Of a DNA stretch of 64,000 nucleotides, positions 379 through 61,369 are shown one piece after another. Below the pieces are notes generated by a model. That model was not told the DNA's origin and did no database searches. It saw only the letters and a list, made by a program, of their open reading frames with translations. Source of the stretch: Candidatus Falkowbacteria bacterium RIFOXYC2_FULL_36_12 (GTDB lineage: Bacteria > Patescibacteriota > Patescibacteriia > UBA11705); contig MFGJ01000001.1 in NCBI GenBank assembly GCA_001778235.1, forward strand, positions 69,302 through 133,301, given 5' to 3'. Each line of letters starts with the position of its first letter. The first letter of the stretch is position 1. Position numbers and translations under genes: made by a program.

Positions 379-1995
379 TTATTCATAAAGTTGATGCGCA
401 TCCATCATGTAATCGCAATAATAACAACGATATTGAGTATCTCCATCGCGAACAAATCTAGCTGGGACATGTTCGTGGAATTCTTCACGCGAAATACAGC
501 CTCCAAGTACTTTGCCGTCACGACTGATGATGTTTTTGCACTTTCCTTGACCAGTAATAATGGCTGGGACTCTAACAATATCATGCTTTTCAGTTACAAC
601 GCCCTCAACAATTTTATTGATTGAAGTTGGACGACCATTGGTGAGTCGGCCGGCAACCAAAGAAGCAACTATTTTCTTTTCCTCACCTGTTAAATATCTG
701 TCTTGAACCAAGAGCATGCCTTTGTAGGTGCCAGGATGATTGGTTCGTTCAATTACTCCGCCACGATAAACATCGCCATTTTTTTCTACCTGTAAAAGCC
801 ACATCAGCTTTTGAGGAGTATCAATCGGCAAATGATCAATAACAACACCATTTTTCCGAATTGGTTTGATGTAAAAATCTTTGTCATCTACATCACGGGC
901 GACATATTCTCTTTCCTGCCAATAGACATCTTCTTCAATTACATGACCATTATACAATTCCCCATCAAAATCATCACCAATTAATCCGGACAACATACAT
1001 AAGATAGTAATACGGGTTGGGACCCCAGTACCAGCTTGCTGATAAAACTTGGCTTGTGGTAATCTGGCAACAGCTGGCTCAATCTCTGGATCATGTCTAT
1101 AAATTGGTAGAGGATGTGTTAGAATTGCAGTCGGTTTCATATGTTTGACCAGCTTTTCAGTCACAAAATATAACTTTTTAGTTCGTTCATATTCTGCTAA
1201 TGCCAAATCACCCATTCGTTCGAGTTGAGCCCGTAGAACCATTACCACATCAGCTAGTGACATTAATTCTGGTGTCAAGCCATAATGAACTTCATAAGTA
1301 CTCCCCCTTTCTTCAATTAAACGCAGATAACTCTCGGGCATTTGCATACCTTCAGGAGCAACAAAAACGAAATGTACTCCATCGTGAGAAAAATCTTCAA
1401 CATCTGAATGAGGAACACGACCATAGCGCAAATCATTAACCATCATGATTCTTAACCCTCTTAAACTATATGGATGATCACATTCATCTGTAAGTCTGTT
1501 AAAAAATTTTAGAATAGTGTAACGGTCAACAATGGTTTGAGAGGGATGTTTATGTGTACCATCTCCACCATTAATAATGCCCATAAAATACTGGCCTTGA
1601 TCTTTTAATTTATCCATCTCATCAGCAATAAATCTTGCGGAGCCGTCTAGACGATGCCTGATAACAGCAATGCGAGCTCGATATTCTCTAAACATTCTCA
1701 TTGCATCGTAAAGCGATTCACCTTTAAAAGAATATGAATTGCCTGGAGCAGATGAAACACCGAGTGGCAAAACTCCCATAAGGTGCATGGCAGTAAGGAA
1801 TGATTGTTCAGTACGAGAGCTAGGTTCAAAAAAATTGAGTGACATCATTAGTTTCAAATTTTCAGCCAAAGAATAGGCTCCTTGATCACCGGCTTCAATT
1901 GCTTTATCAAATTCTGCTGATTTTCTCATAATATATTCTACTTCATCTCTTGTCAGCTCATCATTTGAAACAAAATGACGATCCTTGAATTTCAT
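379..1995 (-). CDS. pyrB: Aspartate carbamoyltransferase, fused catalytic (PyrB) and regulatory (PyrI) chains. The likely true start is MKFKDRHF, which follows a GGAGG Shine-Dalgarno; the ORF track begins 12 codons upstream.
   Basis: N-terminal part has the SSRTEQSF carbamoyl-phosphate motif plus HPSQ and HPLP motifs of the ATCase/OTCase fold. C-terminal ~150 aa has GVVIDHLP and Cys pairs (CKN...C, CYYC) like the PyrI zinc domain. Confidence 0.8.
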   Translation of the reverse strand: MKFKDRHFVSNDELTRDEVEYIMRKSAEFDKAIEAGDQGAYSLAENLKLMMSLNFFEPSSRTEQSFLTAMHLMGVLPLGVSSAPGNSYSFKGESLYDAMRMFREYRARIAVIRHRLDGSARFIADEMDKLKDQGQYFMGIINGGDGTHKHPSQTIVDRYTILKFFNRLTDECDHPYSLRGLRIMMVNDLRYGRVPHSDVEDFSHDGVHFVFVAPEGMQMPESYLRLIEERGSTYEVHYGLTPELMSLADVVMVLRAQLERMGDLALAEYERTKKLYFVTEKLVKHMKPTAILTHPLPIYRHDPEIEPAVARLPQAKFYQQAGTGVPTRITILCMLSGLIGDDFDGELYNGHVIEEDVYWQEREYVARDVDDKDFYIKPIRKNGVVIDHLPIDTPQKLMWLLQVEKNGDVYRGGVIERTNHPGTYKGMLLVQDRYLTGEEKKIVASLVAGRLTNGRPTSINKIVEGVVTEKHDIVRVPAIITGQGKCKNIISRDGKVLGGCISREEFHEHVPARFVRDGDTQYRCYYCDYMMDAHQLYE

Positions 1996-2399
1996 TTGTC
2001 CTCCGGCTGGTTGTGGCAATGAAAAGAACAATTAACTGTATAATATCTCAACTGATATTTAAGTCAATGTGGATTTTTTGGAAATTTAGATAAATAAACT
2101 TAGTCTTGCCAAAAGCAATGATATGTGCTAAGATTTAGCTAATCAGACTGGCACTTAATGTCGTGATTTCACGATCTTAAATGCTGGAATAATAAATAAT
2201 TTTTAGATAAGAGAGTTTTAGTTAAATGGTTGATCTGGACAAATTCTAGTTAATTTCTATCTTAGCATTTAAACATCTACCATGAAATTTATTGTAAAAA
2301 TTCAACAAAATTATTCACAAAGACTACAAAAAGTTCTAAAATAATTTTTTATTACAATTTTTTCAACTCTAAAACAACTCTTACTATATAAGTAAGAAT

Positions 2400-10806: not shown

Positions 10807-11580
10807 TTACTTTTTTTTCACAACAAGTCTAAGGCGCGGGTAAACTAATTGGTGATGTTTGTCTTGTTGTTTGAGATTAATTTCCACTCGGGATTCTACC
10901 ATAATATAACCTGGCATGAAACTTGAGCTGGAAATCGTAGTTGACACATTGGACAATATATTAGCGACAATTACAGAGACATCGTTTGAAGTATAAACTT
11001 CAAATTTAAGCCTACGCTTCAATTCAAGAACTTCAGAATCGTCTCCAAACAACGGATCACTTTGTTTCAAAGCGGAAAAATTAATCGTGAGAAATTTACT
11101 CATCAAATATGATCTAACATCAATCGGAATAAAGCTAAGACTATTGCGGACAATGTAATCTTTACCTGCGAACTGGCACTCAATATTACGAAAAAATTGT
11201 AAAGCATCAAAGGCAGAATCAATTGAATATAATTTTGTCATCGGATCGAACTGATCAAGAACTAACAATCGATTGCCTGAAGACAACTCATAAACAGCAA
11301 ATAGATATTGTGTTTGCCCATTGTCAACATATTTAATACGAACAATATTGAAATTTTTCAAGAAAACTCTAAAAAAAAGAAAATATGTGAAAGCAACAAA
11401 TAAACATAAAATTGAATAAACAAATACTATGACGATATTAACTTTTGTCGCCAGAATCATAATAAGCAAAATCAGGGCGAGACCGACAACTTCCATGATT
11501 CTCGGTATTAGCAGATTAAACAAATATTTCATCTTAGCGAGATTCTCATATTTTTCAATGAACTTGGCAGTCTGGTCCAT
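10807..11580 (-). CDS. Hypothetical membrane protein
   Basis: Two or three N-terminal hydrophobic helices; no known motif. Confidence 0.45.
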   Translation of the reverse strand: MDQTAKFIEKYENLAKMKYLFNLLIPRIMEVVGLALILLIMILATKVNIVIVFVYSILCLFVAFTYFLFFRVFLKNFNIVRIKYVDNGQTQYLFAVYELSSGNRLLVLDQFDPMTKLYSIDSAFDALQFFRNIECQFAGKDYIVRNSLSFIPIDVRSYLMSKFLTINFSALKQSDPLFGDDSEVLELKRRLKFEVYTSNDVSVIVANILSNVSTTISSSSFMPGYIMVESRVEINLKQQDKHHQLVYPRLRLVVKKK

Positions 11581-11730
11581 GGCGCCTCCTGTTTCAGGGT
11601 AAAAATAACCTTATAACAATCATTTAAGTATGTCAAACTAAATTTGAGCGCTCCAAGCATTTGTCATCTTTTTCTGACATTGTTTTGTGGCTAATTTTAG
11701 CAGAAAAGAACAAGGCTCCGTCAGCACCTA

Positions 11731-11759
11731 TTGACATTTATTCAAATTTATGATATAAT
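11731..11759 (+). promoter_or_regulatory. Consensus sigma70-type promoter (TTGACA-17-TATAAT)
   Basis: ttgaca at 11731-11736, an exactly 17-nt spacer, tataat at 11754-11759. Confidence 0.6.
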
Positions 11760-11766
11760 GCTTAGT

Positions 11767-12395
11767 TAAATGATCAATACAACTTAGCATAGTCAGTAGC
11801 ATGATGTAGAGGAGAGAGCTCTATTTACTCGCTTTATCGACTCGTCGATTACGCAAGTTTATAGTTATAAACACTGCCTTACCAAGGTATTAAGTTATAT
11901 CCAAGACCTTAATTAAGGCAAAAAACTTCTTCTATGTCATTGTACTGATTATATACATTCTCCAAATATTAACACTATTGTGATGTGGAGGAGAGAGATT
12001 CGTTAGCTAAATTTGGTTTCAACACCGTATTTGGCAATGAATTAAATACTTCCATAGTTTTGCGAGGCTTTAAAATTTCTTTTATTGGCCAGATACAAAA
12101 CTATATTATTTTCCTCTACCTCACAATATTGTTAAGTTCATCAAAATATACGGTAGTAGAGATGTGGGGGGGAGATACGGGGATATTATTTATTTTAATT
12201 GATCCCACGAGACTCCTTCTCATCTGTGCTACTGTTATTTTTTCTTGAAATGGGCAGGCAAGCTTCTCTCTCCTCTATTTTCTAGTTCTTTTACTAGAGA
12301 ATAACTTGTCTGCTCATTTGAGGGAGAAATCCCTTTTACAAAAGGAGCATTCCCGTGTGGAATCGCTTCTTTTGCTTTTAAAGGGATTTTTTATT
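11767..12395 (+). ncRNA. Candidate large structured non-coding RNA of ~630 nt. Its class is unknown; it is not tmRNA and does not look like RNase P RNA by eye.
   Basis: No credible ORF across ~940 bp. A consensus promoter lies upstream and a hairpin plus T-run terminator sits at ~12340-12395. A long-range complement pairs gaggagagag (~11808) with ctctctcctc (~12266), and gatgtggaggagagag-like motifs recur. Confidence 0.4.
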
Positions 12396-12524
12396 TAGAC
12401 AATAAAGACATTTGCTGTGATTAATCTTGCCAATTTCTTCATTTATGTTCAATTTTATGATAAAATATTAGTACATTAAATAATAACCTAACTCATAGAT
12501 TAAGCCTATTGAGTATTTATTAAT

Positions 12525-14861
12525 ATGGCGAAACGAGGAAGACCCAGAAAAAATAAAGTCCAAGTCGAAGAAGAATATTATTCACTTAGCCCTGAAACAA
12601 AAAAAGCAATTTTTATCGTTGTTTTATTTGCCCTTGCAGTTATTAGCAGTTTAAGCTTTTTAGACCTTGCGGGTTCAGCCGGACAGCTTATAAGCATGGC
12701 ACTAGCTATTGCTTTTGGACTGACAAAATATTTATTCCCGATTATTTTAATTTGTTTGGCGTATGTTCTAACCCAACCGAGCAAATATGCACCTACATGG
12801 ATTAATTATCTTGGTATACTAATCTTTATACTAAGTTTTAATGGATTAATTCATTTAATTGTTACTAGAAATATTTTGGATACAGCAACTGATTATGCTT
12901 TTGCCGGACTGGGTGGAGGACTATCAGGGTTGGCCTTGAGCTACCCATTAAATCAAGGATTAGGCTTCTGGGCGAGCGTTGTACTGCTACTGGCCTTTAC
13001 CATTATTTCAATTTTATTAATATTTAATACAACCCTTGAAACACTATTAGACCGAACAAAACTTTCTAATATCGGGAGCTTTGTGTCAAATCCGCTAAAA
13101 CGAAATTCCGGAGATGATGATGATTTTGATGAAGAAGATGATGACGACGATGAAGAAGAAAGTGAAACAAATGAAACTGAAGAGATTGAGCTTGAAGAAG
13201 ATGAAAACGAAGGTCTTGAAACGATTGGACAACCAATTAAAACAAGTGGAATATTTAAAAAAACACCAACTGCAGTTGAAAATAAATTTGCTGAAAGTAA
13301 ATTTAGGAATCTGCAATATGATTTGCCACTGGGCTTACTTAATGGTAAATCAACAAAGCCAAAAAGTGGTGATGTAAATCTGGCAATGGAAAGAATTGAA
13401 AGTACTTTGCATAATTTTGGTATAGATATAGAAATGGGAGAGGTTAATGTCGGACCAACAGTTACCCAGTATTCATTTAAACCAGCTGAAGGAATTAAAC
13501 TATCTAGGATAACAACCTTAAACAATGATCTTGCGCTCGCTCTTGCAGCTCACCCAATCAGAATTGAAGCTCCAATCCCTGGAAAATCCCTTGTCGGAAT
13601 AGAAGTTCCAAATCACCAGCCCGCGCTGGTACCACTTCGACCAATTATTGACAATAAAGATTTCCAAGAACAAAAATCAAAACTTTCACTAGGTCTAGGC
13701 AAAGATGTAAGCGGAAAAAATTGGCATTGTGATTTAGGGAAAATGCCACATTTACTAGTTGCAGGAGCCACTGGTTCAGGTAAAAGTGTTTGCTTGAATA
13801 CTATAATTTTAAGTTTGGTATATCAAAATAGTCCTGAAACATTGAGATTAATATTAGTTGACCCAAAAAGAGTTGAGTTTACTGTATATAATGGGATTCC
13901 ACATTTATTAACACCGGTGATCACTGATGTCACAAAAACAATCAATGCTTTGCGCTGGGCAATACATGAAATGGATCAAAGATTTGATATTTTGTCCAAA
14001 GCAGGAAAAAGAAACATTGAAAGTTATAATGAACATAGTCAAGTGAAAATGCCCTACATTGTCATTGTGATTGATGAACTGGCTGATCTAATGACTGCGG
14101 CATCAGCAGAAGTTGAAGGAAGTATAATCAGACTAACTCAAATGGCACGAGCTATTGGTATTCATTTGGTAGTAGCGACCCAAAGACCATCGGTTGATAT
14201 TATTACTGGCTTGATTAAAGCTAATATACCAGGACGAATTGCTTTTTCTGTTGCCTCATCAATGGATTCAAGAACTATTCTTGATTCAATTGGTGCTGAA
14301 AAATTAATTGGAAAAGGCGATATGTTATTCCAAACGGCTGAACTATCAAAACCAAGACGATTACAAGGGGCATTTGTAAGTGACAGAGAAATAAAAAATG
14401 TGGTAAACTTCCTAAAGCAACTGGCTGGAGAACCTGAATATGATGAATCAATCGTAGAAAAACAAAGTAATAAATCAAGTTTTGATTTTGGTGGTGATGA
14501 AGCTGATGATGAATTGTTTGATGAAGCAAAGAGCGTTGTACTTCAAGCCGGGAAAGCCTCTGCCTCACTGCTTCAAAGACGATTGAGAATCGGATATGCC
14601 AGAGCTGCCAGACTGATTGATATTTTGGAAGAAAAAGGCATTGTCGGCGCAGCTGATGGAGCTAGGCCAAGACAAATCCTAATGTCAGAAGAAGATTTTG
14701 ATCAACCAACTCCATCTGTTTTTCGTGGAAGAGACCAAAAACAAGATGATAAAATCAATATCGCAGATGATGAGACTGATTTAGATGAAGAAAAAGATGA
14801 TGATGAAGATAATGAGATAAATCAACTTGACTATACAGATGACGAGGACAAAAACCAATAA
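12525..14861 (+). CDS. ftsK: DNA translocase FtsK/SpoIIIE
   Basis: N-terminal TM helices, acidic linker, Walker A GATGSGKSVCLN, C-terminal gamma winged-helix (LLQRRLRIGYARAARLIDILEEKGIVG). Confidence 0.9.
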   Translation: MAKRGRPRKNKVQVEEEYYSLSPETKKAIFIVVLFALAVISSLSFLDLAGSAGQLISMALAIAFGLTKYLFPIILICLAYVLTQPSKYAPTWINYLGILIFILSFNGLIHLIVTRNILDTATDYAFAGLGGGLSGLALSYPLNQGLGFWASVVLLLAFTIISILLIFNTTLETLLDRTKLSNIGSFVSNPLKRNSGDDDDFDEEDDDDDEEESETNETEEIELEEDENEGLETIGQPIKTSGIFKKTPTAVENKFAESKFRNLQYDLPLGLLNGKSTKPKSGDVNLAMERIESTLHNFGIDIEMGEVNVGPTVTQYSFKPAEGIKLSRITTLNNDLALALAAHPIRIEAPIPGKSLVGIEVPNHQPALVPLRPIIDNKDFQEQKSKLSLGLGKDVSGKNWHCDLGKMPHLLVAGATGSGKSVCLNTIILSLVYQNSPETLRLILVDPKRVEFTVYNGIPHLLTPVITDVTKTINALRWAIHEMDQRFDILSKAGKRNIESYNEHSQVKMPYIVIVIDELADLMTAASAEVEGSIIRLTQMARAIGIHLVVATQRPSVDIITGLIKANIPGRIAFSVASSMDSRTILDSIGAEKLIGKGDMLFQTAELSKPRRLQGAFVSDREIKNVVNFLKQLAGEPEYDESIVEKQSNKSSFDFGGDEADDELFDEAKSVVLQAGKASASLLQRRLRIGYARAARLIDILEEKGIVGAADGARPRQILMSEEDFDQPTPSVFRGRDQKQDDKINIADDETDLDEEKDDDEDNEINQLDYTDDEDKNQ

Positions 14862-14872
14862 TTGTTTGAACT

Positions 14873-15556
14873 ATGGCAAATTTTGAAAGTAAAAGCTTGA
14901 AATCAATTGAAACTCTAGGCGAAATATTAAAAAAGCATAGATCAGAACTTAATTTGTCCATGAACCAAATCGCGAGACAGTTTCAGATCAATACTAGATA
15001 TTTGCAAGCTCTGGAAAATGATGCATACGATCAAATGCCGGCTGATATTTATACTCACAATTTTCTAAAAAAATATGCGTCTCTACTCGGACTGAATGCA
15101 TCATCATTGATTTCTCTGCATGAAAGAGAAAAAAATCTATATTTGAAAACCAAAAAAAAGGATAAATCAAAGATTAATAACTTAAGCCTAGGTTCAAAAT
15201 TTCTAAACAAAATTTTGGAGCCAAAAAAGATAAAGGCTTTTTTTATTTTGTTACTATTTGTTATAATACTTACCTATATTGGCTTTAGTATCAGTAAAAT
15301 ATTTTCACCGCCAGAACTGATTATAAAGGAACCAAGTGAAAATAGTATAATTACCCAGAATACAACCCTTGAAATCAAAGGGGTAACAGAGGAAGAAGTT
15401 GAATTAACAATAAACTCAAGACAAGTACTTTATGACCGCGATGGAATTTTCTCGGTACAGCTTGATTTGCAAAAAGGATTAAATGTGATTAAAATAACAG
15501 CAAAGAAAAAACACAGCCAATCCAATACTATTTATAAACAGATTATTGTAGAATAG
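14873..15556 (+). CDS. rodZ: RodZ-like HTH (XRE-type) membrane protein
   Basis: N-terminal HTH (LSMNQIARQFQINTRYLQALE), a central TM helix, C-terminal domain. Confidence 0.55.
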   Translation: MANFESKSLKSIETLGEILKKHRSELNLSMNQIARQFQINTRYLQALENDAYDQMPADIYTHNFLKKYASLLGLNASSLISLHEREKNLYLKTKKKDKSKINNLSLGSKFLNKILEPKKIKAFFILLLFVIILTYIGFSISKIFSPPELIIKEPSENSIITQNTTLEIKGVTEEEVELTINSRQVLYDRDGIFSVQLDLQKGLNVIKITAKKKHSQSNTIYKQIIVE

Positions 15557-15672
15557 TAATAACATTGCTTGTCGTTGTTAAATAAATAAATCCATGCTTG
15601 AAATAATTATGAAAGTGTCATTAATGATAAAATTTAAGTGAATTATAGCTTAAGTTTACATTTTCTGAACTA

Positions 15673-16722
15673 ATGAAAAATAAATTTATGGTAAAGACAA
15701 AAAATGGTGTGGAGGAAAATGAAAAAAACAAAGCAGCAAATGAAGCAATTTTGCAAATAAGAGAAAAATTCGGTGAAGGTTCAATCATGAGACTGGGGGA
15801 AGCAAAGGCGATGGAAGTTGATTCTATTCCAACGGGTTGTTTATCTCTTGATATTGCTCTCGGCGTTGGTGGTGTGCCACGAGGTCGTATAATTGAAATC
15901 TATGGACCAGAATCATCAGGAAAAACTACTTTGGCACAACACATTGCATCTGAAACTCAAAAAAGAGGCGGGATTGCGGCCTTTGTTGACGCTGAACATG
16001 CACTTGATCCAGAATATGCACAAAAGATTGGAATAAATATAAATGAGTTATTAATTTCTCAACCTGATACAGGTGAACAAGCTCTGGAAATCGTTGAAAC
16101 CTTAGTAAGATCAAATGCAGTGGATACAATAATTATTGATTCAGTTGCTGCGCTGGTACCAAAAGCTGAAATTGAGGGGGAAATGGGAGATCAACACATG
16201 GGACTCCAAGCAAGATTAATGAGTCAGGCCCTAAGAAAACTGGCTGGCATTGTTGGTAAAACACAAACCACTGTAGTTTTTCTAAATCAAATAAGACATA
16301 AAATCGGAGTTTTTTTCGGCAACCCAGAAACTACAACAGGTGGTAATGCTTTAAAATTTTATTCTTCTGTCCGAATAGAAGTTAGGAGATCGGCACAAAT
16401 AAAAAAAGGAGAAGAAATTATTGGGAACCAAGTCAAATGTAAAATTGTAAAAAACAAGGTGGCGGCGCCATTTCAAACAACAACTTTTGACATTATGTAT
16501 AATGAAGGAATTTCCATCCCTGGTGATGTACTTGATGTGGGGTTAAAGTATAAAATCTTATCAAAATCAGGCAACTCATATACATATGGCGAAGAAAAAC
16601 TTGGGGTTGGCAGAGAAACGGCTAAAGATTATTTGAGACAAAATCCAAAATTAATTGAAAAAATAAAAAAAGAAGTTTGGAAAGCAATAGAAGTTGGACC
16701 GATCGCGGAAGAGCAGATCTAA
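15673..16722 (+). CDS. recA: Recombinase RecA
   Basis: Walker [18 protein letters not shown]1/L2 loop regions, and the overall pattern. Confidence 0.95.
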
Positions 16723-36175: not shown

Positions 36176-37096
36176 ATGAACAATTTACTAGAAATACAAT
36201 CTTTAAACAAAACGCAGCTTACCGCCTTAATCAACAGATCAATAGATTTTAGTAAAAACAAAAAACAGCAATTATTAAAGAATAAACGCTTAGCTCTATT
36301 GTTTTCAGAGGTCTCTTTGAGAACCAAAATGTCGTTTAAAATTGGAATGCAATTATTAGGCGGTATTGCCACAACTGTCTCAATTCCGCACTTAACAAAA
36401 GAATTTGACGGAACAAATAGAGAGGATTTCTTAGATATTTTAAAATCACTGGAAGGTTGGGTAGATGCTTTTGTAATAAGAGATTACACAGGAAAATTAT
36501 TAGAAATGTCATTAAAACATACTAATTTACCTATAATCGATGGCTTTTGCGGTCTTAATCACCCCACACAAACTATTGCAGATCTGGCTATTATTCAAAA
36601 AGAATTTAAAAAAATCAAAAATCTTAAAATATGCTGTGTCTGTCCTCCATTTGGTAGCGGTGTTATGGAATCCTTTGCATACGGTGGGATTATAATGGGG
36701 GCGGATATATATTTCTTGACTCCAGAAAGCAAATATAGTTCTAAAAACAAAAGTTTCAATAAAAAGATTAAAGCATTGGGGAAAAAATGGGGCGGAAAGT
36801 TGACCATAACAACTGATATAAAAGTAGCATTATCAGATGCAAAAATCTTATATGTTGACGAGTGGTGGAAAAATACTAAAAACTTTTTGGATATTAAACT
36901 TGGTAAACTCAAAGTTGACAATGCTTTTTTGCAAAATGCTCTCCCAAATATTAAAATAATGCATTATTTACCAGCTCACCATGATAGAGAAATAACCAAA
37001 GAAATTTTACATTCAAAAAAATCAATAGCTTTTGAGCAAGCCGAGTTCAGATTATATTCTGCAATGGCTAGCTTGGAATATATTTTTAATAGGTAA
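36176..37096 (+). CDS. Divergent transcarbamylase of the ATCase/OTCase fold; substrate unknown
   Basis: SLRTKMSF in place of the STRTR carbamoyl-phosphate motif at the expected position; HPTQ motif; HYLPAHHDREIT in place of HCLPAxRGxE. Confidence 0.6.
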   Translation: MNNLLEIQSLNKTQLTALINRSIDFSKNKKQQLLKNKRLALLFSEVSLRTKMSFKIGMQLLGGIATTVSIPHLTKEFDGTNREDFLDILKSLEGWVDAFVIRDYTGKLLEMSLKHTNLPIIDGFCGLNHPTQTIADLAIIQKEFKKIKNLKICCVCPPFGSGVMESFAYGGIIMGADIYFLTPESKYSSKNKSFNKKIKALGKKWGGKLTITTDIKVALSDAKILYVDEWWKNTKNFLDIKLGKLKVDNAFLQNALPNIKIMHYLPAHHDREITKEILHSKKSIAFEQAEFRLYSAMASLEYIFNR

Positions 37097-57172: not shown

Positions 57173-57517
57173 ATGGATGAAAATCAGCCTATTTTGGCAC
57201 AATCTATTTTTGTTATTCTATGTGTTCTTGTATACATCTTTTTAGTCTGTGCTAAGGAAGGTGTTTTGGACTATACCTGGCTTGACTCCACTGATTACCC
57301 TGAATATGGAGAATGGGCATATGAACCAATACTTGGAAGTGGGAATTGTGTAGATTACCATGGTAAAAAAAGTCATTACGAGAAACTTAATATTGCAATA
57401 GACGAATACTCATCTAGATTTACTCAATTTATTTGTGATGGAACAAAGCCAAACAACAGTTATGAAGCATTTTATGTAGGAACTACATTGCTAAATCTGC
57501 TTGTGTCAACAAAATAA
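57173..57517 (+). CDS. Hypothetical membrane-anchored protein (114 aa)
   Basis: N-terminal TM helix; Cys-containing C-terminal part. Confidence 0.35.
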   Translation: MDENQPILAQSIFVILCVLVYIFLVCAKEGVLDYTWLDSTDYPEYGEWAYEPILGSGNCVDYHGKKSHYEKLNIAIDEYSSRFTQFICDGTKPNNSYEAFYVGTTLLNLLVSTK

Positions 57518-57600
57518 GTTCAAGATCGTCAAAATGACGGTTTTTTCTTTTATTTAATTTTAGGGACAAACAATACTTTTGTGTCGTAAAACTATACTTC

Positions 57601-57620
57601 AATGTTTCACGTGAAACATT
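57601..57620. promoter_or_regulatory. 20-bp perfect palindrome aatgtttcacgtgaaacatt (copy 1); putative operator or recombination site
   Basis: Perfect dyad centred on CACGTG; an identical copy lies at 58450-58469. Confidence 0.5.
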
Positions 57621-57793
57621 TTATAATGTTATTATTTTTTAGAATATTTATATAACTTGAGTAAGCATTTATAAATATTCATATAGTGATCAATTGATGA
57701 TGAGATAACACATCTAATACCTAAAATATCCACTACACTATTTTAATCATACATACTAATATTGAGTATTTTGTGATTGAATTGTTAAATGAT

Positions 57794-58135
57794 TGATTTT
57801 AAAGTAAATTTAAACAAAATTTAGCTATTTGTATAGACTATTGTAGACAAACAGAAAATAAGTTAAATCCTGTTTTTAAAGTAAATTTAAACAAAAATAC
57901 GCGTTTGTATAGACCATTGTAGACATCTATGTGATATTTTCCGAGTAAATACCTATAATTTGCTAATAATCAACATTTTTATAGTAAATTTAAACAAAAA
58001 TTAGCGTTTGTATAGACTATTGTAGACATTTATAAAATTTTCTGTTAAAAATCTGAAATAACCCTACTTTTTTGATTTTAAAGTAAATTTAAACAAAAAA
58101 TAGCCCTAGATGTATAGACCATTGTGTACAAACAT
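57794..58135 (+). repeat. Array of four degenerate ~50-bp direct repeats (iteron-like)
   Basis: Core agtaaatttaaacaaaa...tttgtatagac[ct]attgtagaca at ~57797, 57875, 57977, 58075; spacers of ~28-50 bp differ. Confidence 0.7.
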
Positions 58136-58229
58136 GCTAAATTTTGGTAGTTATCAATAGTTTATCCACAGAATTTTGGTATTTTGGCTGTAATATTGGT
58201 GGAAAAACTATATACTTATTTTTATACCC

Positions 58230-58305
58230 TGGTGACCCCACCAGGACTTGAACCTGGATCAAAGGCTTAGGACGCCCCTATTCTATCCAATTGAACTATG
58301 GGATC
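58230..58305 (-). tRNA. tRNA-Arg (anticodon CCT)
   Basis: Cloverleaf: acceptor GATCCCA/TGGGGTC, anticodon loop GTCCTAA, T-arm CCAGGTTCAAGTCCTGG, CCA encoded. Confidence 0.75.
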
Positions 58306-58449
58306 GTAGTTGGTTGTAAGCCCTGAAGTAGATGCTATGCATCACTTCAAGGCAAGCGAGTATGGTTAAACCTGTATTAATGACTGTATTTTACTGTATT
58401 CAATAAATTTATTCAAGGTAATGTTTAATTAGTTTGTGATATTAAATGG

Positions 58450-58469
58450 AATGTTTCACGTGAAACATT
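58450..58469. promoter_or_regulatory. 20-bp perfect palindrome aatgtttcacgtgaaacatt (copy 2)
   Basis: Identical to 57601-57620. Confidence 0.5.
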
Positions 58470-58618
58470 TTTTATTTATAATAATATTTTTTTATTATTT
58501 TTACTAGAATTAAACATATTAAAGTGTCGTAAAATATTAATTATTTAATTATCAAAGAGTAAAAGTTTTGAAGAGTGATAATTAATATTCAAAACGCATG
58601 AAACAAGATTTCCTTTGG

Positions 58619-58919
58619 CCATGCACTATAAACAAGTTTAAGTGCATGGCGAGTAAGCTCGCTGTGGGAAAAGTTTCGAGTGAGGAATAAAAATTAATTA
58701 TTTATACCCTGAAACAAGTTCAGGGTGACAGGTGAGTGTGTTGGTGGCGCGCATTACCGCCCCAGACCTGCCTTCATCAAGATTACAGCAGGCAATCCCC
58801 GAGGTTAGTTATGTTCGTGGTTTTATCACGAGAGAAATTGTTTATACCCTGAAACAAGTTCAGGGTGACAAATTGGGAGATACTGAAACCATGCACTATA
58901 AGCAAGTTTAAGTGCATAG
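58619..58919 (+). repeat. Nested direct repeats. The outer hairpin ccatgcactataaacaagtttaagtgcatgg occurs twice. The inner tataccctgaaacaagttcagggtgaca occurs twice. The core is a ~100-nt conserved element.
   Basis: Outer copies at 58619-58649 and 58889-58919; inner copies at 58703-58730 and 58843-58870; core 58724-58825 is homologous to 30238-30318. Confidence 0.7.
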
Positions 58920-58966
58920 AGTGTAAGCTAAGGACAGGCTTCTCATCCTGTCTGTTTAAAATAAAA

Positions 58967-59043
58967 TGGCGTCCGAGACAGGATTCGAACCTGTGACCTA
59001 CAGCTTAGAAGGCTGTTGCTCTATCCAGCTGAGCTACTCGGAC
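58967..59043 (-). tRNA. tRNA-Arg (anticodon TCT)
   Basis: Cloverleaf: acceptor GTCCGAG/CTCGGAC, D-arm GCTCAGCTGGATAGAGC, anticodon loop CTTCTAA, T-arm ACAGGTTCGAATCCTGT, CCA encoded. Confidence 0.8.
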
Positions 59044-59159
59044 ACAATTATGAGGAAATTATAGCAAGAAACCTTCAGTAAGTCAATGATATAGTTGACA
59101 ATTGTTGTTTTTCAGACTATAATATATAGTTGTGAGTCCACAAAGGGGGAGAGATACTG

Positions 59160-59561
59160 ATGATGTACGGGAGCAACGAGATAAGACCTTTTCAGTATTT
59201 CAAATTTTTTATTTTTTTTGTTGCTGGGGTTGTTCTTTTTTACGCTATAACTACTGGCATTTCATTGATTGCTCTTGCACCTGAAATCGAGCAGGTGAGT
59301 AAATTGAAAAAAACATTTGGATTTGAATGTACTTTTCAGATCAGGTGTGCAGAAAAATTGCGGGGTGAAAAAAATATCTACGAAAAAGAGCTTGATTTCA
59401 ACACTTGTTTTCAGCACCTTGAAAGCAATGCATTGCAGGAAATCCTTGAGAACCATAACAGGGTAGTTGACCTCCTGCCGTGGTGGGCATTTAAGTCACA
59501 TCTGCATGAAAAATGTATGATCCCGACCTATCCCAATCAATGGGCTGAAGCTGAATTGTAA
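59160..59561 (+). CDS. Hypothetical membrane-anchored protein (133 aa)
   Basis: ORF with an N-terminal TM helix and Cys residues. Confidence 0.35.
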   Translation: MMYGSNEIRPFQYFKFFIFFVAGVVLFYAITTGISLIALAPEIEQVSKLKKTFGFECTFQIRCAEKLRGEKNIYEKELDFNTCFQHLESNALQEILENHNRVVDLLPWWAFKSHLHEKCMIPTYPNQWAEAEL

Positions 59562-59654
59562 ACAAAAACAGTGATCGTATTCACTGCTTTTTTTATTTTA
59601 TATATATTTTGAGAAATAGGGGAGCATGAAATTATCAAGGCTTACTCGTGCTTG

Positions 59655-60629
59655 TTATTTATTTTTTTTTGATAATGGTTTGCGTTTATTGTGAAAAGCT
59701 TTGTGAACATCTCTAAGTTGTTGATTGGTAATGTGAGTATATATCTGTGTAGTTGTAATGGATGAATGGCCAAGAATTGATTGGACTGAACGAATATCAG
59801 CACCATTCATTAGTAAATCAGTAGCAAAGCTATGACGCATAGTGTGCGGTGTTACACTTTGGTTTATACCTACAAGCTGGGCGTATTTTTTTACTATTCG
59901 TTCTAAACTTCTCGGAGTTAAGCCAATAAAATCTTTTTCTTCTGCAGTTGAATTATTACGAGCTTCAGCGGCTTTATCATGACCAATAAACAAAAACAAG
60001 TTTTTATCTTTGCGAAGCTTTCGATATTCCTGTATCCAATAACGAGCTTGGTTGGATAGAAAGGCGACTCGAATTTTGCCACCCTTACCGCGGATAGAAA
60101 ATTCTGTTTTTTTTATATTTAAATCTTTTTTTAAGCTCGCAAGCTCTGATACACGCATCCCGGTTGAAAAGAATAATTCAAGAATGGCTTTATCACGAAA
60201 TTGAATTATTTTGGGATTTTTTGACTTCAGCGGAGCATCAAGCAAATTGTACAAATCACTGCCTTCAAGAAAACCAACATGGCGCATCTGCAGACGAGCT
60301 AGTTCAACCTTTTCCGGAGCCAATGAACTAATATCTCGCTTGGCTAAATATTTCAAGAATGAACGGATAGCAATCAAATGATAATTTTGAGTGTTTTTTT
60401 GTAATGATTCTTTTGTTTTTGGATCTTTGAACCGATTGAGCCAAAGGCGAAAAAGTCTAACCGCATCGAGACTGATTTTTTCTGGAGTAGTTATATTTGA
60501 GCTCTTGAGCCAACCAGAAAAACGACGCAGATAGAAGTCATAATTGCGAATAGTGCGCTCGGTGCGTCCTTTGGCGACTTCTAAATCCTGAAGAAAGTCT
60601 GTGATTAATTTATCCAGTTTTGAAGACAT
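59655..60629 (-). CDS. xerC: Tyrosine recombinase, XerC/XerD-like
   Basis: C-terminal catalytic pattern HTMRHSFATDLLMNGADIRSVQSILGHSSITTTQIYTHI with a plausible nucleophile Tyr; N-terminal SAM-like core-binding domain. Confidence 0.8.
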   Translation of the reverse strand: MSSKLDKLITDFLQDLEVAKGRTERTIRNYDFYLRRFSGWLKSSNITTPEKISLDAVRLFRLWLNRFKDPKTKESLQKNTQNYHLIAIRSFLKYLAKRDISSLAPEKVELARLQMRHVGFLEGSDLYNLLDAPLKSKNPKIIQFRDKAILELFFSTGMRVSELASLKKDLNIKKTEFSIRGKGGKIRVAFLSNQARYWIQEYRKLRKDKNLFLFIGHDKAAEARNNSTAEEKDFIGLTPRSLERIVKKYAQLVGINQSVTPHTMRHSFATDLLMNGADIRSVQSILGHSSITTTQIYTHITNQQLRDVHKAFHNKRKPLSKKNK

Positions 60630-60991
60630 TGTGTTTTTATTTTATTGATTTAATAATTTATTTACTTAATGAACGAATGTACTTTAATTTTACGACACTT
60701 TTGAATTTGGGACAAGAGGTGAGGGGTGAGAATTGTTAGATTTTAGTTGACAGATTATAGTTATGATTGGTTGATTATTTTATTTATTTATGAAATAATG
60801 CTTGCTATTGCCAAAATTTAATAGATGTGTTAGAATAATTAAAGCTTAATAAATTAACTACTCTGTGGAGCTAGCCCTGAAATCTCATAGAAGATGAAGC
60901 GGTTCTGTGGAGAAATTACAAAACTACAAAAAGTTACGAAATATTACAAAATATTTTATAACGAGCTGTAAGGTTGTAATGAAGTAAAATT

Positions 60992-61369
60992 ATGTTGGAT
61001 CAAAAGAAAAAGCAACGAATCATTGCTAAGTTCAAAACACATGAAAATGATACTGGTTCACCTGAAGTGCAAATTGCTATTTTAACAGAAGAAATCAAGG
61101 AATTAACAAAGCATCTTCAGATGCACAAACAAGACCATTCATCACGAAGAGGTTTGCTAAAAAAACTGGGTGAAAGAAAAAGATTACTACGATACCTTGA
61201 GGCAGAAAACCAAGAAAGCTATGAAAACCTTATCAAAGAACTAAAACTGAAAATTTCTAAAAAGTACCAAGAGAGAAAAGAAGAAATTGCTAGACTTTTG
61301 GCTGAAGACGAAGAAGCTGAAAGAGCTGAAGAAGAAAGCGTTGAAGAACCTGTAGTTGAAGAAGAATAA
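60992..61369 (+). CDS. rpsO: 30S ribosomal protein S15 with an acidic C-terminal extension
   Basis: GSPEVQIAILTEEIKELTKHLQMHKQDHSSRRGLLKKLGERKRLLRYL; conserved rpsO-pnp order. Confidence 0.85.
   Translation: MLDQKKKQRIIAKFKTHENDTGSPEVQIAILTEEIKELTKHLQMHKQDHSSRRGLLKKLGERKRLLRYLEAENQESYENLIKELKLKISKKYQERKEEIARLLAEDEEAERAEEESVEEPVVEEE

What the first reader, a model, noticed from the sequence alone, without database searches (positions are those of the whole stretch)
57575..58540. 20-bp perfect palindrome aatgtttcacgtgaaacatt present twice, each near a GTGTCGTAAAA motif
Identical perfect dyads centred on CACGTG occur at 57601-57620 and 58450-58469, on either side of the repeat array and tRNA-Arg(CCT). 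Two identical perfect 20-bp palindromes in an AT-rich genome are very unlikely by chance. They suggest operator sites for a dimeric regulator, or recombination core sites. The 11-mer gtgtcgtaaaa occurs 20 bp upstream of the first dyad (57581), 55 bp downstream of the second (58524), and once more in inverted orientation at 60687.
Basis: seen in the sequence. Interest (0 to 1): 0.5.

Follow-up and report, generated by a model that had tools for sequence, protein, structure and literature searches.

The report
Two parS chromosome-partition sites
The two identical 20-bp palindromes are ordinary parS "centromere" sites, where the partition protein ParB loads onto a bacterial chromosome. The only unusual point is that in this group of ultra-small bacteria (Patescibacteria) each site has a sharply conserved 11-bp companion motif of unknown function.

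Summary
AATGTTTCACGTGAAACATT occurs exactly at 57601-57620 and 58450-58469 (0.01 expected by chance). GTGTCGTAAAA occurs exactly three times (0.04 expected).

The palindrome core TGTTTCACGTGAAACA is the perfect consensus parS, the ParB/Spo0J binding site. In 45 of those 120 loci a ParB signature lies a median of 1.2 kb away, and 6 of 6 tested ORFs are ParB_N + HTH_ParB. The host is a Candidatus Falkowbacteria bacterium (Patescibacteria/CPR). So the sites bind a dimeric HTH protein, but they are not a gene-specific operator or a recombination core.

The 11-mer is real and not explained. In 11 Patescibacteria lineages (GC 32-61%) it sits 10-12 nt from one parS. A second, same-oriented copy brackets a parS/tRNA-Arg(CCT) module, which also holds DnaA boxes in several lineages. 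It is not enriched at parS loci of other phyla, and it is a poor sigma-70 -10 element.

No parA or parB lies within -9.6 to +73.7 kb of the window, so a cognate ParB in this genome is inferred, not shown.

Verdict: a known kind of element, with a modestly interesting lineage-specific companion motif.

The parts
57601..57620 (.). parS site 1 (16-bp core 57603-57618, TGTTTCACGTGAAACA)
   Evidence: Exact consensus parS. An orthologous site is kept in relatives L131, L132 and L133.
58450..58469 (.). parS site 2 (16-bp core 58452-58467)
   Evidence: Identical to site 1. An orthologous site is kept in L131-L133, L137, L138 and L143.
57581..57591 (+). 11-mer A, GTGTCGTAAAA, 11 nt before the parS1 core
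   Evidence: The 10-12 nt spacing to parS holds in 11 lineages. In alignment A2 only the 11-mer and the parS core are invariant.
58524..58534 (+). 11-mer B, 56 nt after the parS2 core, same orientation as A
   Evidence: Spacing is 56-61 nt in the window, L131-L133, L137, L138 and L143.
60688..60698 (-). 11-mer C, 59 nt upstream of the xer start codon and pointing toward xer
   Evidence: 11-mer-like copies lie upstream of xer in L132, L133 and L134 (GTGTCGTATAA), with a one-mismatch copy about 540 nt upstream in L131.
58230..58305 (-). tRNA-Arg(CCT), the gene always found inside the parS/11-mer module
   Evidence: It lies next to parS in every Patescibacteria locus examined whose tRNAs were scanned, that is all except L134 (no parS).
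57793..58134 (+). Array of four ~58-nt units whose core is the imperfect palindrome TTGTATA-N8-TATACAA. An associated element, not part of parS.
   Evidence: 4 hits in the array against 0.71 expected for the window. There is a single unit in L132, L133, L138 and L143, and 4-6 units in L131.
58162..58170 (+). Perfect DnaA box TTATCCACA next to array unit 4
   Evidence: TTTATCCACAG is kept at the same place in L132 and L133. It is one of only two perfect boxes in the 83 kb examined.
58967..59043 (-). tRNA-Arg(TCT), neighbour of the module
59655..60629 (-). Xer-type tyrosine recombinase, a housekeeping neighbour. No evidence that it acts on the dyads.
   Evidence: Phage_int_SAM_1 + Phage_integrase; 60% or higher identity to homologues named as from several Patescibacteria groups (Falkowbacteria, Buchananbacteria).

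Best explanation
The two 20-bp palindromes are chromosomal parS sites, the cis-acting centromere of a ParABS partition system, in a Candidatus Falkowbacteria (Patescibacteria/CPR) chromosome. Mechanism, taken from established ParB biology and not shown here: a ParB dimer recognises each 16-bp inverted repeat through its HTH domains. parS stimulates CTP-dependent closure of the ParB N-terminal gate. The resulting clamps slide onto flanking DNA and accumulate into a partition complex. That complex is moved by ParA and commonly loads SMC, so that the origin-proximal part of the chromosome is organised and segregated. Two sites 849 bp apart form one compact loading zone in an A+T-rich, tRNA-bearing non-coding stretch. 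The 11-mer GTGTCGYAAAA is a separate, Patescibacteria-specific cis element. Directly oriented copies flank the parS/tRNA-Arg(CCT) module. My best guess is that it binds a still unidentified sequence-specific protein that works with the centromere or origin region, for example as a boundary or roadblock to ParB sliding, or as an origin-region organiser. I put about 50% on that guess among the options considered. It is probably not a promoter -10 element.
For: SHOWN.
(1) The core equals the perfect parS consensus at 16 of 16 positions. Review PMC7022226 lists TGTTNCACGTGAAACA (B. subtilis) and TGTTTCACGTGAAACA (H. neptunium) as parS, and calls it a highly conserved palindrome present in most bacterial chromosomes.
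About 0.5 are expected in 596 Gb under uniform composition (my own arithmetic). The loci come from Alpha-, Beta- and Gammaproteobacteria, Bacillota, Bacteroidota, Actinomycetota, Chloroflexota, Acidobacteriota, Spirochaetota and others, often with 2-4 copies within 1 kb.
(3) 45 of those 120 loci carry the ParB arginine-patch motif GE[RK]RxRA within the 8-kb locus, at a median of 1.2 kb from the palindrome. The same motif has 0 hits in 252 kb of control loci and 0 in the window. All 6 tested ORFs are ParB_N + HTH_ParB (E 1e-26 to 1e-38).
(4) Orthologous loci of three other Falkowbacteria-like genomes (Xer 72-75% identical) keep two parS at the same positions while the surrounding non-coding DNA has diverged. 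Across 11 lineages the only invariant columns are the 11-mer and the parS core.
(5) 11-mer: 3 exact copies against 0.04 expected. 27 copies occur in 15 loci (14 Patescibacteria lineages plus L141, a probable chance match), with sharp motif edges and no extra copies elsewhere in those loci. Spacing to parS is fixed. Only 1 of 120 parS loci from other phyla has it, against about 3 expected by chance.

INFERRED: ParB binding, CTP-dependent clamp loading and spreading, ParA and SMC involvement, and any role of the 11-mer.
Against: No parA or parB gene, and no ParB or ParA signature, lies in the window or in the flanks reachable from it (window coordinates -9.6 to +73.7 kb). A cognate ParB in this genome is therefore assumed from the conservation of the site, not demonstrated. 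Origin proximity is unresolved. There is no GC-skew switch in the window, and the skew follows gene strand. For the 11-mer no binding protein, transcript or phenotype is known, and its orientation relative to neighbouring genes is not uniform.
Confidence: 0.92

Rival explanations
1. The dyads are operators for a dimeric transcription factor unrelated to chromosome partition, controlling a local gene.
For: The sequence is a perfect dyad of operator size. The simple scan finds promoter-like hexamers that use the dyad itself as a -35: TTCACG-N16-TATAAT at 58455-58482 and TTCACG-N18-TATTAT at 57606-57635. In some relatives parS2 lies 22-44 nt upstream of tRNA-Arg(CCT).
Against: The identical 20-mer is conserved across bacterial phyla and sits beside parB, not beside one regulated gene family. 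No regulator gene is adjacent. No protein-coding gene lies downstream of either promoter-like site. No other promoter in 64 kb carries the site.
Confidence: 0.03
2. The dyads or the 11-mers are recombination core sites (dif or att-like) for the adjacent Xer-type tyrosine recombinase. They would allow inversion or excision of the tRNA-bearing segment.
For: A Xer-like recombinase gene lies 1.2 kb away. Two identical sites flank an 830-bp segment. 11-mers A and C are inverted around 3.1 kb (I2 and I12). The array is in the opposite orientation relative to the tRNA in L131 compared with the window.
Against: The dyad has no 6-8 bp asymmetric central spacer between 11-bp arms, and it is the universal parS sequence. 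The 11-mer has no inverted partner arm 6-8 bp away in any copy. The module is equally conserved next to rmuC, with no xer called within 5 kb, in the Uhrbacteria-like genomes. Strains of this species (loci L121-L129) all show the same arrangement. The Xer protein is 60% or more identical to homologues named as from several Patescibacteria groups, so it is a housekeeping enzyme rather than an element-borne integrase.
Confidence: 0.02
3. The dyads act mainly as RNA hairpins, that is as weak bidirectional intrinsic terminators for the tRNA and neighbouring transcripts.
For: Each dyad folds into an 8-10 bp hairpin followed by a U-run on the + strand. The energies are -6.5 to -8.2 kcal/mol, z -2.0 to -3.4. 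In most of the low-GC relatives parS is followed by a T-run.
Against: The hairpins are weak and A/U-rich, and the terminator scan did not call them. Site 1 lies just after a genuine terminator at 57522-57544. Base-for-base conservation of the loop and stem across phyla is a DNA-recognition signature, not an RNA-structure signature, because there are no compensatory changes.
Confidence: 0.02
4. The sites are parS by sequence, but their main role here is something other than ParA-driven segregation. Options are SMC loading only, ParB-mediated silencing of the tRNA region, or a relic kept after loss of ParA/ParB.
For: No parAB lies within 83 kb. ParB can modulate nearby transcription in other bacteria (abstract of PMC4488948). 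The sites sit tightly against tRNA promoters in some lineages.
Against: A relic would decay, yet the sites are perfect and conserved over 32-61% GC. parS sites are commonly tens of kb from parB in other bacteria (within the ori domain, up to 20% of the genome).
Confidence: 0.05

Closest known systems
Chromosomal parS / ParB(Spo0J)-ParA(Soj) partition system (B. subtilis, C. crescentus, H. neptunium and others)
   Same: The 16-bp palindrome TGTTTCACGTGAAACA is identical. There is more than one copy, the sites are intergenic, and the same sequence lies next to parB genes in many phyla.
   Different: The host is an uncultivated Patescibacteria bacterium. parAB is not nearby. The sites flank tRNA-Arg(CCT) and are paired with a lineage-specific 11-mer at fixed spacing. 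I found no description of that pairing.
Noc-binding site (NBS, about ATTTCCCGGGAAAT) of the ParB paralogue Noc in Bacillota (consensus from my own knowledge)
   Same: It is a parS-derived palindrome bound by a ParB-family CTP-dependent clamp.
   Different: The specificity positions differ. The window sites carry the parS bases (GTTTCAC/GTGAAAC), not the NBS bases. To my knowledge Noc is restricted to Bacillota.
Plasmid and phage centromeres and ParB-family operators (P1 parS, F sopC, RK2 KorB OB)
   Same: They are short repeats that nucleate ParB-family complexes. KorB shows that such sites can also repress promoters.
   Different: Those sequences are replicon-specific. The site here is the chromosomal consensus, in a conserved chromosomal context of housekeeping genes.
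dif/Xer and integrase att cores
   Same: They are short sites near a tyrosine recombinase gene.
   Different: The dyads and the 11-mer have no two-arm plus asymmetric-spacer architecture, are not single-copy, and show no terminus signal.
oriC-type DnaA-box clusters and ParB roadblocks by nucleoid proteins
   Same: The module holds a conserved perfect DnaA box. Uhrbacteria-like homologues hold up to 10 boxes between the two 11-mers. Review PMC7022226 notes that ParB spreading can be limited by protein roadblocks.
   Different: In this genome there is no dense box cluster at the parS locus and no skew or gene-orientation switch. A roadblock role for the 11-mer is speculation.

Membership tests
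Chromosomal parS (ParB/Spo0J binding site) | 16-bp inverted repeat matching TGTTNCACGTGAAACA | tested here: met
   16 of 16 positions at both sites. Consensus from PMC7022226.
Chromosomal parS (ParB/Spo0J binding site) | The same sequence is physically associated with parB genes in other genomes | tested here: met
   45 of 120 loci carrying the exact 20-mer have the ParB GERRxRA motif, at a median of 1.2 kb. Controls have 0 in 252 kb plus 64 kb. All 6 tested ORFs are ParB_N + HTH_ParB.
Chromosomal parS (ParB/Spo0J binding site) | Purifying selection on the site at orthologous positions while flanks diverge | tested here: met
   Only the parS core and the 11-mer are invariant across 11 lineages.
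Chromosomal parS (ParB/Spo0J binding site) | Cognate ParB (and usually ParA) encoded in the same genome | not testable with these tools
   None within window coordinates -9.6 to +73.7 kb. The rest of the genome could not be reached, because look-ups are restricted to window proteins.
Chromosomal parS (ParB/Spo0J binding site) | Location in the origin-proximal domain | tested here: inconclusive
   There is no GC-skew switch, and skew tracks gene strand. Hints of origin proximity: a DnaA-box cluster 8 kb away at about 66.7 kb, gyrA at about -5 to -7 kb, and yidC, ssb and ftsK in the window.
Chromosomal parS (ParB/Spo0J binding site) | Specific ParB binding and CTP-dependent clamp loading at the site | not testable with these tools
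   This needs biochemistry or ChIP.
Operator of a gene-specific dimeric transcription factor | The site overlaps promoters of a defined regulon, with the regulator usually nearby | tested here: not met
   There are only two sites in 64 kb, with no protein gene downstream and no regulator adjacent. The sequence is universal across phyla.
dif / att recombination core | Two ~11-bp recombinase-binding arms around a 6-8 bp asymmetric spacer. dif is single-copy at the terminus. | tested here: not met
   The dyad has no spacer and is present twice. The 11-mer lacks an inverted partner arm. There is no skew switch.
sigma-70 -10 element (candidate reading of the 11-mer as ..TAAAAY) | T at the last (-7) position, T at the first position, and a TTGnnn -35 at 16-18 bp | tested here: not met
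   The -7 position is T in only 12 of 27 copies. The first position is C in 6 of 27. The -35 is inconsistent except upstream of xer.
oriC (DnaA-box cluster plus unwinding element) at the parS locus itself | Several DnaA boxes within a few hundred bp, and a strand-bias switch | tested here: not met
   In the window locus there is one perfect box plus two TCCACAG boxes 2.7 kb away. Genes stay on the + strand on both sides. Uhrbacteria-like homologues do have dense boxes.

The most novel reading that the evidence does not exclude
GTGTCGYAAAA is an undescribed, Patescibacteria-wide cis element. It is the binding site of an unknown sequence-specific protein that is functionally coupled to the centromere. 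One copy sits 10-12 nt from a parS, and a second, same-oriented copy closes off a compact module holding parS sites and tRNA-Arg(CCT), plus DnaA boxes in several lineages. In Uhrbacteria-like genomes the module looks like oriC. The element could set the boundaries of ParB sliding or organise an origin/centromere cassette in these reduced genomes. The second recurring composite, the TTGTATA-N8-TATACAA palindrome followed by DnaA boxes (at 58.1 kb and about 66.7 kb), may belong to the same origin-region system.
Probability: 0.4. Interest if true: 0.6.

Novelty: new member of a known kind. Interest (0 to 1): 0.3.

Why it matters
As parS, the finding is routine. It marks the chromosomal centromere and probably the origin-proximal domain of an uncultivated CPR bacterium, which helps with genome orientation and with checking binning or assembly. 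The more useful result is comparative. Across the Patescibacteria loci examined (14 lineages; 13 have parS nearby), parS sits in a conserved non-coding module with tRNA-Arg(CCT), with DnaA boxes in several lineages, and with a sharply defined 11-bp motif that is absent from parS loci of other phyla. If that motif binds a factor that shapes ParB loading or spreading, or origin function, it would give a handle on chromosome maintenance in a large radiation that has almost no experimental genetics. It is directly testable by DNA-affinity methods.

Tried and rejected
1. Known RNA family. Rfam found only the three tRNAs at gathering thresholds across the window, and nothing credible at E up to 5 in 57400-61000.

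2. oriC at the dyads. Rejected for this genome. There is no GC-skew switch. DnaA boxes are not enriched in the window (13 against 21 expected). Genes stay on the + strand on both sides.

3. The 11-mer as a sigma-70 -10 or ECF-type promoter. The -7 T is missing in 15 of 27 copies and the -35 is inconsistent. A minus-strand promoter reading also failed on manual inspection.

4. The 11-mer as a dif arm or att core. There is no partner arm.

5. The 11-mer as a general companion of parS. Rejected: 1 of 120 loci from other phyla has it.

6. Literature on the 11-mer. Three papers contain the string, and by their titles none concerns this motif. No paper combining Patescibacteria or CPR with parS/ParB chromosome biology turned up.

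7. Finding parAB by walking. The left flank (L146) and right flank (L150) have none.

8. The repeat array as CRISPR or TIGR-like. Units of about 58 nt with 20-45 nt irregular spacers and no cas or tas gene nearby. Judged by eye only and not pursued.

9. L141 and L145 (Zur/ZnuA context, GC 0.53). The 11-mer next to parS there is probably a chance match.

10. The Livny et al. 2007 paper could not be read.

Full report
**1. Observation**

The sequence read and pattern searches confirm the finding. AATGTTTCACGTGAAACATT is exact at 57601-57620 and 58450-58469. These are the only matches in the window with up to 3 mismatches (0.01 expected). No other 16-mer comes within 3 mismatches of the core.

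GTGTCGTAAAA is exact at 57581-57591 (+), 58524-58534 (+) and 60688-60698 (-). That is three copies against 0.04 expected.

Between the dyads lie a four-unit repeat array at 57793-58134 and tRNA-Arg(CCT) at 58230-58305 on the minus strand. The dyads are not part of a duplicated block. Only an A/T-rich tail is similar beyond the 20 bp (D9).

**2. Identity of the palindrome**

About 0.5 would be expected by chance under uniform composition (my own arithmetic).

- The loci come from Alpha-, Beta- and Gammaproteobacteria, Bacillota, Bacteroidota, Actinomycetota, Chloroflexota, Acidobacteriota, Spirochaetota and others, often with 2-4 copies within 1 kb.
- The core TGTTTCACGTGAAACA is the perfect parS consensus. 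Review PMC7022226 lists TGTTNCACGTGAAACA for B. subtilis and TGTTTCACGTGAAACA for Hyphomonas. It describes parS as a highly conserved palindrome on most bacterial chromosomes, mostly in the ori domain.
- I tested the association directly. In 45 of the 120 loci the ParB arginine-patch motif GE[RK]RxRA is encoded within the 8-kb locus, at a median of 1.2 kb from the palindrome.
- The same pattern has no hit in 252 kb of unrelated loci or in the 64-kb window.
- All six such ORFs tested are ParB_N + HTH_ParB, with E-values of 1e-26 to 1e-38.

The dyads are therefore parS sites.

**3. Host and context**

- The neighbouring Xer protein is 100% identical to a protein of Candidatus Falkowbacteria bacterium RIFOXYD2_FULL_35_9. 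The same locus occurs in many groundwater assemblies.
- The window encodes housekeeping genes: RNase Y, ClpP, FtsK, RecA, EF-P, SSB, S6, NusA, YidC, YchF, PilB, TsaD/TsaE, a H+-pyrophosphatase, trigger factor, Nfo, Sua5, S15 and PNPase.
- There is no ParA, ParB or DnaA in the window. There is none in the 9.6 kb to the left (gyrA and others) or the 9.7 kb to the right.
- A cognate ParB is therefore inferred from conservation of the site, not shown.
- GC skew shows no switch and mainly follows gene strand. Origin proximity is unresolved.

**4. Comparative genomics of the module**

Loci were fetched through Xer homologues: L131 (75% identity), L132 (73%) and L133 (72%). They keep this order: DUF167 gene, 11-mer, parS1, tRNA-Arg(CCT), parS2, 11-mer, tRNA-Arg(TCT), xer. 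An 11-mer-like copy also lies upstream of xer.

A metagenome scan for the composite GTGTCGYAAAA-N10-14-GTTTCAYGTGAAAC returned 11 loci.

- L137, L138 and L143 are low-GC relatives. L138 has Sua5 upstream.
- L135, L139 and L144 have 56-61% GC. There the order is 11-mer, parS, DnaA boxes, parS, tRNA-Arg(CCT), tRNA-Ala(CGC).
- Homologues of the neighbouring RmuC are named Uhrbacteria, Parcubacteria or Patescibacteria.

Three more such loci were fetched (L147-L149).

- Each has two same-oriented 11-mers 1.0-1.6 kb apart. The pair brackets the parS sites, tRNA-Arg(CCT) and tRNA-Ala, and most of the DnaA boxes found in these loci.
- L147 has 10 boxes with at most 1 mismatch, three of them perfect.
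- The second 11-mer lies about 100 nt upstream of rmuC.

Across 15 loci (14 Patescibacteria lineages plus L141), 27 copies define a sharp motif, G[T/C]GTCG[T/C]AAAA, with A/T flanks. There are no stray copies elsewhere in those loci. L141 and L145, in a Zur/ZnuA context, are probably a chance match.

- The gap between the 11-mer and the parS1 core is 10-12 nt in 11 lineages. In their alignment the only invariant columns are the 11-mer and the parS core.
- The gap from parS2 to the second 11-mer is 56-61 nt in seven low-GC lineages.
- In the 120 parS loci from other phyla the motif occurs once, against about 3 expected by chance. The pairing is therefore specific to this lineage.

**5. What the 11-mer is not**

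- *Not a sigma-70 -10 element.* Read as ..TAAAAY, it lacks the critical last T in 15 of 27 copies and starts with C in 6. A TTGnnn -35 at 17 bp is seen only upstream of xer. This organism has canonical TTGACA-17-TATAAT promoters nearby.
- *Not a dif or att arm.* It has no inverted partner arm.
- *Not a known motif in the literature searched.* Three papers contain the string, and by their titles none concerns this motif.

I therefore treat it as a binding site for an unidentified protein. Its bracketing, same-oriented arrangement around the parS sites suggests a boundary or organiser role. The literature notes that protein roadblocks limit ParB sliding. This is speculation.

**6. Mechanism**

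*Shown:* sequence identity to parS, association of that sequence with parB genes, and conservation at orthologous positions.

*Inferred from established ParB biology:* ParB dimers bind each dyad, close into CTP-dependent clamps, slide and accumulate. The complex is positioned by ParA and may load SMC.

As RNA, the dyads form only weak hairpins of -6.5 to -8.2 kcal/mol. The terminator scan did not call them, so a terminator role is at most secondary.

**7. Other features seen in passing**

- *Array units.* They share the imperfect palindrome TTGTATA-N8-TATACAA. Four of the five window hits are in the array, against 0.71 expected for the window. The units occur 1-6 times at this locus in relatives, and in the opposite orientation in L131.
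- *Unit plus DnaA box.* Unit 4 is followed by a conserved perfect DnaA box (58162-58170). The same unit recurs about 8.5 kb downstream, just outside the window at about 66.67 kb. There it is directly followed by three DnaA boxes and an AT-rich stretch. L133 has the same composite.
- *Perfect DnaA boxes.* Those two places hold the only perfect boxes in the 83 kb examined. That may mark oriC or a DnaA-box cluster close to the centromere. Gene orientation does not switch there.
- *Structured insert.* The stretch 58540-58966, with two pairs of hairpin repeats around a GC-rich core, is strongly structured on both strands (z -5.1 and -5.7). It appears species-specific, since the equivalent interval is 105-186 nt in relatives.

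**8. Verdict**

The palindromes are textbook parS sites, a new instance of a known kind. The added value is the Patescibacteria-specific 11-mer companion and the conserved parS/tRNA-Arg(CCT) module, which also holds DnaA boxes in several lineages. That module is unexplained and modestly interesting.

Noticed in passing
window 57793-58134; L131 7466-8642; L132, L133, L138, L143 (single copies): There is an array of four ~58-nt units (AAGTAAATTTAAACAAAAA...TTGTATAGACYATTGTRKACAA). The conserved core is an imperfect palindrome, TTGTATA-N8-TATACAA, which looks like an operator for a dimeric protein. Copy number varies from 1 to 6 between relatives, and in L131 the orientation relative to the tRNA is reversed.
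   Followed up: partly
window 58162-58170; just outside the window at about 66.67-66.93 kb (L121 19480-19560, L150 about 15100-15690); L133 440-540: A composite of the array unit followed by DnaA boxes recurs. The only two perfect TTATCCACA boxes in the 83 kb examined lie next to such units. The second site has three boxes within 40 nt plus an AT-rich stretch, in a 573-nt intergenic region upstream of a dksA-like gene. It is a candidate oriC or DnaA-box cluster 8 kb from parS2, but gene orientation does not switch there.
   Followed up: partly
L147 2837-4446, L148 3696-4846, L149 2924-4449, L135/L139/L144 (see alignment A1): In GC-rich Uhrbacteria-like Patescibacteria the homologous module is packed with DnaA boxes (up to 10 in 1.6 kb) around tRNA-Arg(CCT) and 2-4 parS sites, and is bracketed by two 11-mers. 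It looks like an oriC that contains a tRNA gene.
   Followed up: partly
window 58540-58966: This is a species-specific insert of about 430 nt between 11-mer B and tRNA-Arg(TCT). It has two pairs of near-identical hairpin repeats (58619-58659 and 58889-58929; 58696-58730 and 58836-58870) around a GC-rich core. It is strongly structured on both strands (z about -5 to -6) and has no Rfam match. It could be a small non-coding RNA or a miniature mobile insert.
   Followed up: partly
window 60863-60869 and 60905-60911 (upstream of rpsO): Two CTGTGGAG motifs (the DnaA-box-like TCCACAG on the minus strand) lie in the xer-rpsO intergenic region. A similar TCCACAGAG is present in L133. Three of the five TCCACAG heptamers in the window fall within 57.5-61 kb.
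   Followed up: no
window 11580-12525: This 945-nt intergenic region before ftsK has three spaced repeats of ATGTRGAGGAGAGAG and a TTGACA-N17-TATAAT-like promoter. It may hold unannotated small ORFs or an RNA. Gene orientation in the wider region changes from mostly minus to mostly plus around here.
   Followed up: no
L141 10540-10600 and L145 (GC 0.53, next to zur/znuA genes): Here parS is embedded in a 36-bp extended palindrome (CGTCAAAAAATGTTTCACGTGAAACATTTTTTGACG) with a GTGTCGTAAAA 12 nt away, in what looks by gene context and GC content like a non-Patescibacteria contig. The 11-mer match is probably chance.
   Followed up: no
window 379-2031 and 36176-37096: There are two aspartate/ornithine carbamoyltransferase-like genes. 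One is unusually long, at 550 aa with about 200 extra C-terminal residues.
   Followed up: no
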